Below, piece by piece: positions 30,811 through 34,373 of a stretch of 64,000 nucleotides of DNA. Numbering within the stretch: the stretch's first letter is position 1; the number at the start of each line of letters is the position of its first letter. The translations under genes and the position numbers were made by a program. The DNA comes from Escherichia phage vB_EcoM_10C2_SA_NWU: the sequence record OR062525. One strand, 5' to 3'. Below the pieces are notes generated by a model. It was not told the DNA's origin and did no database searches. It saw only the letters and a list, made by a program, of their open reading frames with translations.

Positions 30811-31026
30811 ATGAAGATAGAAATATTTGGTGGAGCTGACAACACTCGTGGCCTGATTTACCTTGAATTCGATGAATCATACCTGCCAGAGGTGTTAAAT
30901 ATAGACTCTGTTGCTGAGGCTTTGGGAGTAAGTCCTAAAGATCTCTACTCTGGTGCTGAGATTGATGGTTGGGAGGAGACCATGAACATTGATTTCAGTG
31001 AAGTAGGTGATGAACCACTGGACTGA
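30811..31026 (+). CDS. small acidic protein (MKIEIFGG N-terminus)
   Basis: GAGGAG RBS before ATG 30811; last + strand gene before noncoding region. Confidence 0.4.
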   Translation: MKIEIFGGADNTRGLIYLEFDESYLPEVLNIDSVAEALGVSPKDLYSGAEIDGWEETMNIDFSEVGDEPLD

Positions 31027-32536
31027 CACACAATTAGCTACCCGGCTAAAGTGCTGGGAGCACCTATAACACATCTTTCAACTAAATTTCCTACCACCAC
31101 AATCACTTACCTCCCACACATGACTGTTTGCTTGTTTAGTGAGCAGTCATGCCTTGACATTCTTGCCTATCCTGATAAAATTAAGTTCTTCTCTTTTCTT
31201 TTACCGAGTAATTCGGGTTTTCTGTTCTCTTCGGTTTGAAGGGGTATGGAGATACACCTGAGTGAACAGGGTGAACAACCGAACCATTGGCTATGGCATT
31301 AGCATGGCGAAGCGGACGGGTGACGAAAGAGGGGCCGGAGGACACCAGTCACTGCCATATGGTATATGGGTGATAACCTGAAGAGTCTGAATAAGTGTTT
31401 AAGTACCAGTCAGAGGAAAAGGTGAATGGTAGCCGAAGGGGGAGGGGGGTTTCTTGTATCTTTAATTTGTATATTATGTATACACTTGTAAACCAATATC
31501 ATCTGAATCTGTTTACCACACAAAGTGGATAGAGACAAATATCACCTATTAAACTTGAATTATTTATAGAAAATACCACAACACCGCTTAAGTCTTTGAT
31601 TTTACACACAAATCCTACAGATATTCACCCTCCATATTTAACATACTTGTAACATATTCCATACTCTACCTGTCTGATCAATTTCCCCAACTACATCCCC
31701 ATATTTTCCCTGTCTGTACTACCCCTGCCCCGCCGGGAGTCCCGTCATATCTGGCTTTCCAGCAAATATCACACCCACAAATATCATTGCCTGAAGAGGG
31801 TTTCATCCCATAATACCTGCCTTACCTGAAGAGCGCTTCATACACCACGTAAATTTTTTAATTGACCTCCCCCTGCCCCGCCGGAGAGGTTGGCTTTTCC
31901 CACACAGACCTGAAGAGTCAGCCAGAAATATCTGAATAGGCCCAATTCTACCACGATTTTGACCTGACCTACAGGGAGGCCCGAAGGGTCTAGCTTTCAG
32001 CTAGAGTCCTTGCAGGACCTACAGGAGCGCTGCCAGGCGGACGGAATGGGAATACTTCTCATTCTTATAACAATTCTCAAATATCGAGGCAGTGAGAGAA
32101 ATTAATAGGCCAGGCCGTTCACACAGTGGCACAACATTTGCAACCTATTTTGTGTGGATGAATGAGAATACCTATCATTGTGAGAACTGTTATCATTACG
32201 GGCAATTTAACATAATACCCATTATGCGCACCACTGGCGATACATACAGGGATTGATAACATGGGTTACTGTTTACGCACATAACAATTATATTTCTTAT
32301 TATTTGTGGGGGATATAGTTAGCAGCCGATAGATTAGATATTGACCTGCGGACTTCTGACCGTCTAGACGTCTAAACGCCCACACAGCAAGGGTTATACA
32401 TACATCACTGAATGTAAACAGGACTGCAAAAATGCTACCATACAAGCTTGTAAATTTTTCATGTAGCACTTGACAAAGAGGAGAAAAACTTGTCTGACAT
32501 AATGGTGACACAATATGACATAATTGACATGCCTGA

Positions 32537-32632
32537 CTGTTTACGCTATTACTATTCACGCTCTTACTGTTTACATGCTTAATGGTTTACATGACCAATA
32601 GTTTACATAGCTAACTATTTACATTGAAATGA
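32537..32632. repeat. tandem array of about 16-bp imperfect direct repeats (core GTTTACAT)
   Basis: GTTTAC/ATTTAC at 32569, 32585, 32601, 32617 with exact 16-bp spacing, plus copy at 32539. Confidence 0.6.
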
Positions 32633-32663
32633 TAAGCCATGACATTCGTTTGCATGAAAACAA

Positions 32664-32693
32664 TTAACAAGTTAACAATTAACAAGTTAATAA
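32664..32693. repeat. tandem 8-bp repeats TTAACAAG/TTAACAAT (about 4 copies)
   Basis: TTAACAAGTTAACAATTAACAAGTTAATAA. Confidence 0.6.
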
Positions 32694-32698
32694 TCTAT

Positions 32699-32850
32699 GA
32701 CATAATATAAAAGCAGGGCAACTATTAGAAGATCTATAGTTGCCTTGCTTGTTATGTCATGATTAACTAAATACAAGGCAACTATGATCTGATTAATAGT
32801 TTGCAGACAAACTATCACGGGGGTGATGGTTACTGCTTTTATATTATGTC
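32699..32850. repeat. perfect 18-bp inverted repeat pair flanking GGCAACTAT palindromic sites
   Basis: GACATAATATAAAAGCAG (32699-32716) and reverse complement CTGCTTTTATATTATGTC (32833-32850); GGCAACTAT/ATAGTTGCC copies between. Confidence 0.6.
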
Positions 32851-33546
32851 GCGACTCCGTCGCGCCATGCCATTCGTTTGCATAGTTGCCTTATTGTTAC
32901 AGGTAAAATAATTACATTATTAATTATTTCTTATCTTTCTCTTAGTCATCTAATGATTCCAGTCAGTATAGTAATGTACAGTAAACATTAGACGACTAAA
33001 GATTTCTCTGTTTATGATAACTCATCGTGATAATTTCGGACTGTTTACGAAAAATGTTGACACCTGAGCTGATTTATGTTATGCAGTTTACACGAATAAT
33101 TATTTTATGCAGGTATTGACTATTCCGTTATTCTGTGGTTGGAATAAATACTTTGCAGGCTATAGAATGGCGTGCGTACGTGAATTCTGAGATCTGGCGG
33201 CTATAGTTATACTCGATTTTTCGCGTAGAACACGCTTTCGATGCTGTGTAAGTGTATGACTTATAAAGATTTTTAGTTGTTGACAAGATATTGGATATGT
33301 GCATCAGGTTAAAATTTGTGCAATAGCGGCATTACGTGCACTTTTGGGAGAGAAAACGGGTAAAAATGGACTTGCTACCACACAATGAAAAATTATGCAA
33401 TAGTTATTTTCCATGTATATTTGTACAGTGTGTGGGATTGATGGCTAGTCAATTATTCCACTTACCAGGCTGGGCCGTTTGTGGTAGGAGAAATACAGAC
33501 AAAAAGAAAGGGGCCTTTTAAAGCCCCTGATAGTTTAGTTAAGAAA

Positions 33547-33966
33547 TTATAATGATTCGTATATTTCATAGATTCGATTTGCCAGGTCGTTACGGTAGCG
33601 GAATTTTTCCTCACGTTTGATCATAAGATCTTTATAGCCGTACTCTTTAAGCACTTCATTAACTTTATGGCGGCATACTTTCATATTATCCTGCGCGTCA
33701 CCAATAAATCTGTTGCTATGGTGCATGGCTTTAATTTCTTCTTCCAGGACCAGGGCAACTATGCGGACCGGATCAAGCTGATAGGCGGTAACATCAATGC
33801 GGCATTGTAAACGGCTTTTTACGTCTGCCACCGGATATACTGCAACCTCTTCCCCGTCAACATTGACAATAATTAGTTTACCATCGATTTCGAATCCTTT
33901 CGCCGCCGGACCGTGACAAAAAGCGTTATCAAAGCTATATGCCGGATTATTAGATTTAATGTTCAT
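33547..33966 (-). CDS. hypothetical protein
   Basis: first gene of - strand array. Confidence 0.45.
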   Translation of the reverse strand: MNIKSNNPAYSFDNAFCHGPAAKGFEIDGKLIIVNVDGEEVAVYPVADVKSRLQCRIDVTAYQLDPVRIVALVLEEEIKAMHHSNRFIGDAQDNMKVCRHKVNEVLKEYGYKDLMIKREEKFRYRNDLANRIYEIYESL

Positions 33967-34109: not shown

Positions 34110-34373
34110 TTATTTGTTGCTCATCCAGTTTTCCCAAGCTGCCTGATAATCTGCCTCACTACGGCGGATCTCTTCTTGTTCTTCAAGTCGGATCTCTTCT
34201 TCCAGGTATCCCAGGATATCGGCTTTTTTGGTCTGGCGTAACATCCAATCATCTTTTTTACGGGTAAAGATCTTATATGCTTTCTCGCAAACCTCTTTTT
34301 TGCTACCTTTTTGGACTTCAAGAACTTTGTAGGCCATGTACTGAACTAGTTTAAGCTGATCAAGACGTTTCAT
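34110..34373 (-). CDS. hypothetical charged protein
   Basis: co-directional ORF. Confidence 0.4.
   Translation of the reverse strand: MKRLDQLKLVQYMAYKVLEVQKGSKKEVCEKAYKIFTRKKDDWMLRQTKKADILGYLEEEIRLEEQEEIRRSEADYQAAWENWMSNK

What the first reader, a model, noticed from the sequence alone, without database searches (positions are those of the whole stretch)
32530..32890. Iteron-like repeat cluster in a 2.5 kb noncoding region where the two gene blocks converge
Between the last + gene (ends 31026) and the first - gene (ends 33547) there is no convincing long ORF. The region instead holds a 16-bp-period tandem array with core GTTTACAT (32537-32632), four tandem TTAACAAG octamers (32664-32693), a perfect 18-bp inverted repeat pair (32699-32716 / 32833-32850), GGCAACTAT/ATAGTTGCC palindromes, and a duplicated CATG[AC]CATTCGTTTGCAT (32638 and 32866). 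This density of direct and inverted repeats is typical of an origin of replication, partition site or packaging site.
Basis: seen in the sequence. Interest (0 to 1): 0.6.

Follow-up and report, generated by a model that had tools for sequence, protein, structure and literature searches.

The report
Phage genome-end repeats and dif site
The repeat cluster lies 36 bases inside the left end of an rV5-like phage's linear chromosome, beside a 459-base terminal repeat that carries a perfect copy of the bacterial dif recombination site. It also contains a deeply conserved folded element of unknown role, so it looks like chromosome-end machinery rather than a plasmid-style replication origin.

Summary
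The repeats are real. The window is an rV5-like phage (Vequintavirus), and its 2.5 kb gene-free stretch holds the physical ends of the virion DNA. Mapping onto records with determined ends places a 459-bp direct terminal repeat (DTR) at 32036-32494. The finding (32530-32890) therefore starts 36 nt inside the left end.

It has two layers:
- Short tandem arrays begin exactly at the DTR boundary: TGACAyAAT x5, then GTTTACAy x6. They vary in copy number between close relatives, and the TTAACAAG octamers are specific to this phage. The layout copies phage T7's short-repeat array after its terminal repeat.
- The 18-nt inverted repeat closes an almost invariant ~200-nt folded element. An equivalent element sits 410-704 nt right of the same landmark in 17 lineages spanning the subfamily's genera. 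There are 14 different, always perfectly complementary, arm pairs. The inner helices co-vary and fold better on the + strand. It matches no Rfam family.

Unexpectedly, the DTR carries a perfect host dif site (XerC/XerD target, 32205-32232), conserved across the subfamily. I found no paper linking the two.

An iteron origin is not supported. End processing or packaging is the most likely role, but it is not demonstrated.

The parts
31027..32035 (.). Gene-free stretch on the right-end side of the junction, left of the terminal repeat. Holds CCTGAAGAG x4, CCCCTGCCCCGCCGG x2 and AAATATC motifs, plus a strong sigma-70-like promoter at 31154-31181.
   Evidence: Analogous motifs occur in KPP-1 and A73. 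84% of columns are invariant among 6 Vequintavirus sequences.
32036..32494 (.). Direct terminal repeat (DTR, 459 bp), present once in this permuted or collapsed assembly.
   Evidence: In Gotham and HdK5 the first 459 nt equal the last 459 nt, and their record starts and ends map to 32036 and 32494. Supported by Korf 2019, Dias 2020 and long reads. The coordinates are inferred by homology, not from reads of this phage.
32160..32197 (.). Two adjacent ~18-nt palindrome-like units (AATGAGAATACCTATCATT and GTGAGAACTGTTATCATT) that end 7 nt from the XerD arm.
   Evidence: Annotated as a repeat_region in phage naswa. Related AATGAGAATCATT-type palindromes occur in other genera.
32205..32232 (-). dif-like XerC/XerD site GGTGCGCATAA-TGGGTA-TTATGTTAAAT. 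Both 11-nt arms are identical to E. coli dif; the central 6 nt differ at 2 positions.
   Evidence: 0 mismatches, with 0.00 expected even at 3 mismatches. Searches confirm the match. 100% invariant among 6 Vequintavirus sequences.
32470..32494 (+). Conserved right-boundary motif of the DTR, TTGACA-N14-TTGTC, ending at the mapped end.
   Evidence: cTTGACA, then a ~18-nt mostly purine-rich spacer, then the end, then TAGCA(A/C), in most of the subfamily-type lineages examined. The Hena1 contig ends exactly there.
32495..32538 (+). Five TGACW-initiated units (TGACATAATGG, TGACACAATA, TGACATAAT, TGACATGCC, TGACTG) with a 9-11-nt period, starting at the first base after the DTR.
   Evidence: Copy number and sequence vary between Vequintavirus genomes.
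32539..32624 (+).
   Evidence: There are 4-9 units in relatives, changed by whole-unit indels. Together with the TGACA units, 22% of columns are invariant.
32636..32655 (+). Box B copy 1, GCCATGACATTCGTTTGCAT.
   Evidence: D7. 95% invariant. Other genera have their own ~20-nt box in two direct copies, one in or before the folded element and one after it.
32659..32694 (+). AT-rich TTAACAAG/TTAACAAT octamer array. It is specific to this phage.
   Evidence: Not conserved in other Vequintavirus genomes: the spacer has 21% invariant columns.
32699..32850 (+). Conserved folded element. An 18-bp perfect closing stem (32699-32716 / 32833-32850) encloses a long hairpin (~32718-32805, GGCAACTAT stems) and a 9-bp hairpin (32810-32831).
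   Evidence: Folds (z = -8.7 to -10.4). 96% invariant over 32697-32900. Equivalents in 17 lineages. Covariation. + strand preference.
32851..32866 (+). GC box GCGACTCCGTCGCGCC: the motif GTCGCkCC, a few nt, then TCGCGCC, directly after the closing stem.
   Evidence: TCGCGCC(A) or a close variant follows the right arm in nearly all lineages.
32864..32883 (+). Box B copy 2, GCCATGCCATTCGTTTGCAT.
   Evidence: D7.
33509..33528 (-). Intrinsic terminator that closes the minus-strand gene block.
   Evidence: Annotated as a terminator in Murica, Gotham and HdK5.

Best explanation
The cluster is the sub-terminal cis-acting region just inside the left end of a linear phage chromosome with 459-bp direct terminal repeats (DTR). 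In replicating DNA it forms the right flank of the 'concatemer junction'.

It has two layers.

1. Short tandem arrays begin at the first base after the DTR (TGACAyAAT x5, then GTTTACAy x6). They expand and contract quickly. They are the counterpart of T7's SRL array, the block of short repeats just inside T7's left terminal repeat. By inference, they are reiterated contact sites for the end-processing or packaging proteins, or a by-product of their action.

2. An almost invariant ~200-nt element (32697-32900) folds as a single strand of + polarity, either RNA transcribed away from the end or the + DNA strand. It forms a three-way junction closed by a perfect 18-bp stem and is followed by a conserved GC box. 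It keeps a fixed place 200-310 nt from the DTR boundary across the whole subfamily, while the genes around it are replaced. I therefore infer that it works in cis with the DTR: either in cutting the junction and regenerating two terminal repeats from one, or in priming the DNA synthesis that this requires.

Shown: the position of the ends, the architecture, the conservation, the covariation and the strand bias.

Inferred: every functional step.

The DTR itself carries a host dif site. XerCD recombination (circularisation of the incoming DNA or resolution of multimers) is therefore probably part of the same end-handling module.
For: **Ends**
- Gotham and HdK5 records start at window 32036 and end at 32494, with identical 459-nt ends.
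- 'Short terminal redundancies of 458 bp'.
[quoted passage not shown] - KPP-1 has a 514-bp DTR, shown by 2x coverage and PhageTerm, in the same convergent gap.
- Hena1 has an annotated 519-bp DTR, and its contig ends match the same boundary motifs.

**T7 layout.** T7's 160-bp repeat is followed at 175-341 by CCTAAAG units with a 13-nt period.

**Arrays.** They are hypervariable, while the folded element is 96% invariant.

**Folded element**
- Perfect 16-22-nt inverted repeats lie 410-704 nt right of the dif landmark in 17 lineages, with 14 distinct arm pairs (270 Watson-Crick pairs, no G.T and no mismatch).
- None is found in the 1.4 kb upstream of dif (14 loci) or in the 3 kb beyond the element (9 loci).
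- In the Mydovirus/Seunavirus group, 62 pairs are 96.1% paired. 16 pairs change on both sides, against 5.5 +/- 1.6 in shuffles (0 of 500) and at most 5 in slid controls.
- The + strand folds better than the - strand in 17 of 17 lineages, by 2.8-17.9 kcal/mol. G.U pairs occur in the inner helices on the + strand only.

**Flanking genes.** They are not conserved between genera, yet the non-coding module is.
Against: - No experiment or read data for this phage was available; the ends are transferred by homology.
- Two papers call Vequintavirus genomes circularly permuted or headful from default PhageTerm runs, and the rV5 paper assumed permutation.
- Nothing shows that terminase or any other protein binds the arrays.
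- T7 has no long perfect inverted repeat next to its terminal repeat, so the folded element has no tested counterpart.
- No convincing promoter or intrinsic terminator brackets the element in Vequintavirus, so an RNA product is unproven.
- The closing stem never shows G.U, which is unusual for a purely RNA-level constraint.
- Synteny with the DTR could be inherited rather than required.
Confidence: 0.5

Rival explanations
1. Replication origin. The direct repeats bind an initiator, the 75% A+T stretch at 32640-32716 melts, and the folded + strand acts as a priming signal (G4-type single-strand initiation signal or ColE1-RNA-II-like primer) for the phage's T7-like primase-helicase and family-A polymerase.
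For: - Direct repeats next to an AT-rich stretch.
- A strand-specific fold on the strand that would be the lagging-strand template of forks moving rightward from the end (inference).
- The closing stem ends in ...GTC in 15 of 17 lineages. GTC is the T7 primase recognition triplet (from memory).
- rV5 encodes a gp4-type primase-helicase and a Pol A polymerase, and its origin was never defined.
Against: - The repeats are the least conserved part of the region and vary in number. The octamers are unique to this phage.
- The 15-16-nt period is not helically phased.
- There are no DnaA boxes.
- None of the eight neighbouring proteins scanned matches a known family.
- The cumulative GC skew peaks here, which is terminus-like and coincides with the strand switch.
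Confidence: 0.17
2. An independent non-coding RNA gene. The element is excised from a rightward transcript, for example by RNase III cutting the perfect 18-bp stem, and acts in trans on host takeover, anti-defence or regulation. Its position beside the end is historical or serves immediate-early expression.
For: - Covariation together with sequence-conserved junction nucleotides (GGTTA, GC box), and G.U pairs on one strand only.
- Promoter-like sequences lie just upstream of the left arm in A73 and in L020, L021, L025, L028 and L033.
- A long perfect duplex enclosing a structured core resembles the processing stalks of rRNA precursors (general knowledge).
Against: - No Rfam family matches in the six lineages scanned, the window plus five others.
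- There is no consistent promoter in Vequintavirus and no terminator after the element.
- There are zero G.U pairs in 270 closing-stem pairs.
- I did not find transcript data. My one literature search for it was too broad to be informative.
Confidence: 0.2
3. Accessory region of the Xer site. The sequences on the XerC side of dif, including the arrays and the folded element, organise the synapse or activate XerCD without FtsK, as the cer and psi accessory sequences do on plasmids.
For: - In every lineage the cluster lies on the XerC-arm side of dif, in a fixed orientation.
- Repeated palindromes surround dif.
Against: - The cluster starts about 300 nt from the core, outside the DTR, so only one of the two dif copies in virion DNA would have it.
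- The cer and psi accessory regions are only ~160-200 bp and lie directly adjacent to the core (general knowledge).
- I did not look systematically for ArgR or ArcA boxes and noticed none while reading the sequence.
Confidence: 0.08
4. No dedicated function: slippage-generated junk plus a strong hairpin that merely stops convergent transcription.
For: - The arrays change by unit indels, as slippage products do.
- The rV5 authors expected bidirectional terminators here and found none.
Against: - The element is 96% invariant, against 86% for the neighbouring gene.
- It is maintained by compensatory changes across the subfamily's genera.
- The minus-strand block already ends at its own terminator, 33509-33528.
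- No U-tract follows the stem on either strand.
Confidence: 0.04

Closest known systems
Phage T7 concatemer junction: terminal repeat flanked by the short-repeat arrays SRL and SRR, with the phiOL and phiOR promoters
   Same: - A short, exact DTR: 160 bp in T7, 459 bp here.
- An array of short direct repeats begins within ~15 nt of the repeat's inner boundary. In T7 these are CCTAAAG units with a 13-nt period at 175-341. Here they run from 32495 to 32624.
- Repeats also lie on the other flank.
- The replisome is T7-like.
- One repeat copy must be duplicated during processing, and a DNA hairpin intermediate has been reported in T7.
   Different: - The host is a myovirus of ~137 kb with no phage RNA polymerase.
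- Genes converge on the ends instead of running inward from the left end.
- T7 has no 16-22-nt perfect inverted repeat enclosing a structured core.
- As far as I know, T7 has no dif site in its repeat.
Chromosomal dif, plasmid cer and psi, and elements that integrate via Xer (CTXphi and other filamentous phages)
   Same: - A 28-bp site with an 11-nt XerC arm, a 6-nt centre and an 11-nt XerD arm.
- Both arms are identical to E. coli dif.
- The same search that finds it also recovers CTXphi.
   Different: - It sits in the terminal repeat of a virulent tailed phage.
- Unlike filamentous-phage sites, which have a degenerate XerD arm and a longer centre, it has a perfect XerD arm and canonical spacing.
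- No integrated copy occurs in 5,426 complete E. coli genomes.
Phage P1 Cre-loxP cyclisation of terminally redundant virion DNA
   Same: A site-specific recombination site present in both copies of a terminal redundancy would excise the genome as a circle. This is an inference from the geometry: two direct dif copies lie 169 nt from the left end and 262 nt from the right end.
   Different: P1 encodes its own recombinase. Here the recombinase would be the host's XerCD, which normally needs FtsK. No phage activator was identified: the 87-aa neighbour annotated as 'FtsK' shows no such similarity.
Iteron origins (lambda ori, P4 ori/crr, plasmid Rep-iteron origins)
   Same: Clustered direct repeats next to an AT-rich stretch. 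The core GTTTACA/GTTCACG loosely resembles the P4 octamer TGTTCACC (from memory).
   Different: - No identifiable initiator gene is adjacent.
- Repeat number and sequence are not conserved among close relatives.
- The period is 15-16 nt.
- The repeats start exactly at a chromosome end.
Single-strand initiation signals (G4-type) and the phi29 packaging RNA
   Same: A strand-specific, multi-helix fold of ~150-250 nt near a genome end. In phi29, a structured RNA encoded next to the left end, with paired 5' and 3' ends, drives packaging (from memory).
   Different: There is no sequence or Rfam relationship. Neither transcription nor priming has been shown. The phage families are unrelated.

Membership tests
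Iteron-type replication origin | Three or more direct repeats of ~17-22 bp, helically phased, conserved among relatives | tested here: not met
   The units have 15-16-nt and 9-11-nt periods. Relatives have 4-9 units, changed by whole-unit indels, and only 22% of columns are invariant.
Iteron-type replication origin | An adjacent initiator gene and/or DnaA boxes | tested here: not met
   There is no TTWTNCACA match between 31609 and 38735. The neighbouring proteins have no Pfam family and belong to PHROG families of unknown function.
Iteron-type replication origin | Autonomous or infection-dependent origin activity | not testable with these tools
   Needs a plasmid ori assay or marker-frequency data.
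T7-type DTR junction with flanking short repeats | Exact short direct terminal repeats with fixed ends | tested here: met
   The 459-nt identical ends of Gotham and HdK5 map to 32036-32494. Supported by the literature. This was established in relatives, not with reads of this phage.
T7-type DTR junction with flanking short repeats | Arrays of short direct repeats abutting the repeat | tested here: met
   Window 32495-32624, compared with T7 175-341.
T7-type DTR junction with flanking short repeats | The flanking sequences are required for junction cutting and packaging | not testable with these tools
   Needs packaging or transduction assays, or phage mutants.
Xer recombination site (dif-like) | 11-nt XerC arm, 6-nt central region, 11-nt XerD arm | tested here: met
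   32205-32232 (minus strand) matches 22 of 22 arm positions of E. coli dif. It is unique in the window, with 0.00 expected by chance.
Xer recombination site (dif-like) | Bound and recombined by XerC/XerD | not testable with these tools
   Needs a gel-shift assay, in vitro recombination, or infection of xerC/xerD mutants.
Integrative element exploiting Xer (IMEX) | Found integrated at host dif | tested here: not met
   No megablast match of the junction region or of 12 kb of phage genes in 5,426 complete E. coli genomes.
Structured non-coding RNA | Helices supported by compensatory change | tested here: met
   16 of 62 pairs change on both sides, against 5.5 in shuffles, with 96.1% paired. The closing stem has 14 distinct, fully complementary arm pairs.
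Structured non-coding RNA | Membership of a described family | tested here: not met
   No Rfam 15 match at E <= 10 in the window region beyond chance-level hits, and none at E <= 1 in five other lineages.
Structured non-coding RNA | A transcript with defined ends | tested here: inconclusive
   Promoter-like sequences precede the element in some lineages, but not consistently in Vequintavirus, and there is no terminator. No expression data were available.
Partition site (parS-like) | Centromere repeats together with parA/parB genes | tested here: not met
   None of the eight neighbouring proteins scanned has a ParA or ParB match. The rest of the genome was not scanned.
Headful pac site | Circularly permuted, variable ends | tested here: not met
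   Fixed ends appear in at least six independently deposited records and one long-read study, although two short reports call the genus permuted.

The most novel reading that the evidence does not exclude
Virulent myoviruses of the subfamily Vequintavirinae carry a bona fide host dif site in each copy of their terminal repeat. They use the host XerCD recombinases, without an integrase of their own, to circularise the injected linear genome, releasing a 459-bp DTR fragment, or to resolve replicative multimers. Their centre sequence differs from the chromosomal one, which would keep them from integrating. The adjacent, subfamily-wide folded + strand element would be a new class of cis-acting structured nucleic acid needed to regenerate or package the terminal repeats.
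Probability: 0.35. Interest if true: 0.85.

Novelty: new variant of a known kind. Interest (0 to 1): 0.72.

Why it matters
rV5-like phages are widely used for biocontrol and therapy, and they form a large part of the BASEL collection of E. coli phages. How they handle their chromosome ends is nevertheless unknown.

- **Practical consequence.** Placing the ends, and the conserved signals around them, matters for correct genome annotation, for rebooting or engineering these phages, and for interpreting recombination breakpoints.
- **Two new testable leads.** The first is a perfect host dif site inside the terminal repeat of every genus of the subfamily I examined. It suggests that a strictly lytic tailed phage borrows the host's chromosome-dimer-resolution machinery, which I believe is known so far only for integrating filamentous phages and similar elements. 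The second is a ~200-nt folded element with strong covariation and no known family. It offers a handle on an old open question: how one terminal repeat in a concatemer becomes two.

Tried and rejected
- **Rfam.** Scans of the window region and of five other lineages found nothing above chance.
- **tRNA or tmRNA.** None in the window.
- **RNA downstream of the strong promoter at 31154.** 31186-31470 folds no better than shuffles (z = -0.69).
- **DnaA boxes.** None in the region.
- **Transposon-like reading** (terminal inverted repeats plus flanking direct repeats, as in a miniature inverted-repeat element). Rejected. The direct repeats are 20 nt long and not adjacent to the arms, and the element keeps the same position across the whole subfamily.
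- **'DNA translocase FtsK' annotation of the 87-aa neighbour.** No support from Pfam, PDB or PHROGs.
- **Prophage or dif-integrated state.** No Vequintavirus DNA in 5,426 complete E. coli genomes.
- **FtsK-orienting motifs (KOPS, GGGNAGGG).** Mildly enriched and locally clustered, but in mixed orientation, so uninformative.
- **The TTGACA at the DTR boundary as a sigma-70 promoter.** The -10-like hexamer (TGACAT or TAGCAA) lacks the key positions. It is more likely part of the cut-site signal.
- **Cross-genus structural alignment with MAFFT and RNAalifold.** The 5' arms could not be aligned between groups. Evidence for the closing stem therefore rests on exact inverted-repeat detection.
- **Flanking proteins as anchors.** They are not conserved in KPP-1.
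- **Literature search for a Vequintavirinae transcriptome.** The query was too broad and returned nothing relevant.
Full report
**What the window is.** The 2.6 kb around the finding matches 121 phage records at 91-97% identity. All are rV5-like phages of the genus Vequintavirus. Genes on the + strand end at 31026, and genes on the - strand end at 33547. Relatives leave the gap unannotated or mark only short, non-conserved ORFs. The rV5 genome paper drew it as a box labelled 'non-coding'. That paper expected bidirectional terminators here and did not find them. It attributed the skew change at this position to the change of transcription direction, and it left the origin undefined. The cumulative GC skew of the window peaks here for the same reason.

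**The observation.** All the listed repeats exist:
- six GTTTACAy-type units at 15-16-nt spacing (32539-32624);
- the octamer array at 32659-32694;
- the perfect 18-nt inverted repeat at 32699-32716 / 32833-32850;
- four GGCAACTAT copies in both orientations, out of 5 in the window against 0.47 expected;
- the 20-nt duplicate at 32636 and 32864.

The inverted repeat is the only perfect one of >=16 nt (gap 30-320 nt) in the 64 kb, and none appeared in 20 shuffles.

**Where the chromosome ends are.** Several GenBank records of close relatives start or stop inside this gap. In Gotham and in HdK5 the first 459 nt equal the last 459 nt. Their starts map to window 32036 and their ends to 32494. Further support:
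- Korf et al. report 'short terminal redundancies of 458 bp' for EdH4 and HdK5.
[quoted passage not shown] Other genera of the subfamily behave the same way. KPP-1 has a 514-bp repeat, shown by doubled coverage and PhageTerm, in the same convergent gap. Hena1 has an annotated 519-bp repeat. Two short reports and the 2013 paper call the genus circularly permuted. I regard those as default-software or assumption-based calls, but they are the main caveat. No reads of this phage were available.

The finding therefore begins 36 nt inside the left end of the virion DNA.

**Two layers of very different behaviour.** I compared six Vequintavirus genomes (alignment).

| Segment | Invariant columns |
|---|---|
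| Tandem arrays (32495-32635) | 22% (more than half the columns gapped) |
| Octamer spacer (32658-32696) | 21% |
| Box B copy 1 (32636-32657) | 95% |
| Folded-element stretch (32697-32900) | 96% |
| Nearest conserved gene (34110-34373) | 86% |
| Terminal repeat (32036-32494) | 90% |

The arrays change by whole units (4-9 GTTTAC units), and the TTAACAAG octamers occur only in this phage.

An array of short repeats starting right after a short terminal repeat is also what T7 has. I checked T7 directly: its repeat is 1-160, followed by CCTAAAG units every 13 nt from 175 to 341, with a looser array on the other flank.

**The inverted repeat is the closing stem of a conserved folded element.** In the window, the 18-bp stem encloses a long hairpin built from the GGCAACTAT/ATAGTTGCC 'palindromes' and a 9-bp hairpin. 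The fold energy is -77 kcal/mol over 191 nt, with z = -8.7.

To find distant relatives I used the one block of the terminal repeat that is shared between genera. This gave 21 viral and 39 metagenome loci.
- In 17 lineages with enough flank, a perfect 16-22-nt inverted repeat lies 410-704 nt to the right of that block.
- The arms fall into 14 distinct sequences, 270 base pairs in all, every one Watson-Crick.
- No such repeat occurs in the 1.4 kb to the left (14 loci) or in the next 3 kb to the right (9 loci).
- In the Mydovirus/Seunavirus group the whole element aligns. Its 62 pairs are 96.1% paired. 16 pairs change on both sides, against 5.5 +/- 1.6 in column shuffles (0 of 500) and at most 5 when partners are slid.
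- The inner helices tolerate G.U, but only on the + strand. The + strand fold is more stable than the - strand fold in 17 of 17 lineages.
- Unpaired junction nucleotides (GGTTA before the 3' arm) and a GC box after it (GTCGCkCC...TCGCGCC) are conserved in sequence.
- Each lineage also has its own ~20-nt box in two direct copies around the element.
- The flanking genes are not conserved between genera.
- No Rfam family matches in the window or in the five other lineages scanned.

MAFFT could not align the 5' arms across groups. The cross-genus statement for the closing stem therefore rests on exact-repeat detection.

**An unplanned result: the terminal repeat contains dif.** The shared block also turned up in unrelated, often GC-rich, bacterial contigs, next to tyrosine recombinases, transposases and housekeeping genes. 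Read on the minus strand it is GGTGCGCATAA-TGGGTA-TTATGTTAAAT (32205-32232). This is identical in both 11-nt arms to E. coli dif, GGTGCGCATAATGTATATTATGTTAAAT, the 28-bp XerC/XerD site.
- It is unique in the window, with 0.00 expected by chance.
- A 56-nt query hits one place per genome in 5,403 of 5,426 E. coli genomes. One place I inspected lies beside a filamentous prophage, as expected for dif.
- A dif-like site is present in Vequintavirus, Mydovirus, Certrevirus, Seunavirus, Henunavirus and related Erwinia and Enterobacter phages. The same search recovers CTXphi as a positive control.
- In records that show both ends, the site occurs twice in direct orientation: 169 nt from the left end and 262 nt from the right end.
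- Filamentous-phage sites have a degenerate XerD arm and a longer centre. This one has a perfect XerD arm and a 6-nt centre.
- In the subfamily-type loci examined, every centre differs from E. coli's TGTATA. This comparison is biased, because my search pattern fixed three centre positions.
- No Vequintavirus DNA is found in complete E. coli genomes, so stable integration is not supported.
- The neighbouring 87-aa protein, which some records call 'DNA translocase FtsK', shows no such similarity.
- No paper in the searchable library combines XerC or XerD with these phages.

**Interpretation.** The location of the ends, the architecture, the conservation pattern, the covariation, the strand bias and the identity of the dif arms are all shown here.

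The functional reading is inferred. The non-coding block is one cis-acting 'junction' module. The conserved boundary motifs are the likely cut signals: CTGCCAG|GCGGACGG or TA|GACGGACA on the left, and TTGACA-N18| on the right. The variable arrays are reiterated contacts for, or by-products of, the end-processing machinery, as is presumed for T7. The folded element acts in cis in regenerating or packaging the terminal repeat, or in priming the synthesis that this requires. T7 itself needs such a duplication, and a DNA hairpin intermediate has been reported for it.

I give this composite reading 0.5. The rivals are:
- a trans-acting RNA gene (0.2);
- a replication origin (0.17);
- a Xer accessory region (0.08);
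- no function (0.04).

The perfect, never-wobbled closing stem is compatible with several things: an RNase III stalk, a DNA hairpin, or arms kept identical by copying one from the other. I cannot tell these apart with sequence alone.

**Novelty.** The terminal repeats of the genus, and their position in this gap, are already in the literature, although little discussed. I found no description of the T7-like sub-terminal arrays, of the conserved folded element, or of the dif site in the repeat. I therefore rate the whole as a new variant of a known kind (a short-DTR junction), with one component, the folded element, that has no known family.

Noticed in passing
window 32205-32232 (minus strand): A perfect dif-like XerC/XerD site inside the terminal repeat, conserved in all the Vequintavirinae genera examined. 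It is present twice, in direct orientation, in virion DNA.
   Followed up: yes
L078 1127-1153 (Seuratvirus SLUR76); L077 601-626 (Ralstonia podovirus RpY2, 129-154 nt from the record start, 2 places in the record): Canonical 11-6-11 dif-like sites also occur in other virulent phages: AGTACGTATAA-CGTCTA-TTATGTTAAAT in SLUR76 and ATTGCGCATAA-GGTCCA-TTATGTTAAAT in RpY2. dif near phage genome ends may be more widespread.
   Followed up: partly
window 32160-32197; L010 3741-3762, 3799-3820, 3943-3964; S-group loci near dif (e.g. L020, L025): Palindromes of the type AATGAGAATCATT or TGATAAnnnTTATCA are scattered around dif and in the folded element. Some (GATAATGATAATCATT in L020) look like the Fur box consensus as I remember it. 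Their meaning is unknown.
   Followed up: no
window 31439 (+), 31723 (-), 31871 (-): Three GGGNAGGG (KOPS-like, FtsK-orienting) motifs lie within 440 nt just left of the terminal repeat. The window has 10 against 5.2 expected. Their orientations are mixed.
   Followed up: partly
window 31154-31181 (+): A near-consensus sigma-70 promoter (TTGACA-16-TAAAAT, with TG) has no ORF behind it. The ~280 nt downstream fold no better than shuffles.
   Followed up: partly
window 31377, 31789, 31825, 31909; 31719 and 31867: CCTGAAGAG x4 and CCCCTGCCCCGCCGG x2 lie on the other flank of the terminal repeat. Analogues occur in other genera: CCACAGAG x5 in A73 and ACCTGAAGTGTCAGCC in KPP-1. They may be the counterpart of T7's SRR array.
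   Followed up: partly
window 33547-33966 (-): This 139-aa gene is accessory. It is absent from Gotham, HdK5, Alma and L021, where the 87-aa gene is the first gene after the gap.
   Followed up: partly
window 34110-34373 (-): The 87-aa protein is annotated 'DNA translocase FtsK' in several records. No Pfam, PDB or PHROG result supports this, so it is probably a propagated mis-annotation.
   Followed up: yes
one search hit list (MG0656xx records): Nineteen records named 'Campylobacter phage' are 92-97% identical to this E. coli phage region. The host labels look doubtful.
   Followed up: no
L016/L031/L038 (261,806-bp contig): Three ATTTAACATAA (XerD-arm) copies lie within ~110 nt, in both orientations, followed by TTATCCACAGCTTATCCACA (DnaA-box-like). 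This is an unrelated replicon with an unusual dif neighbourhood.
   Followed up: no
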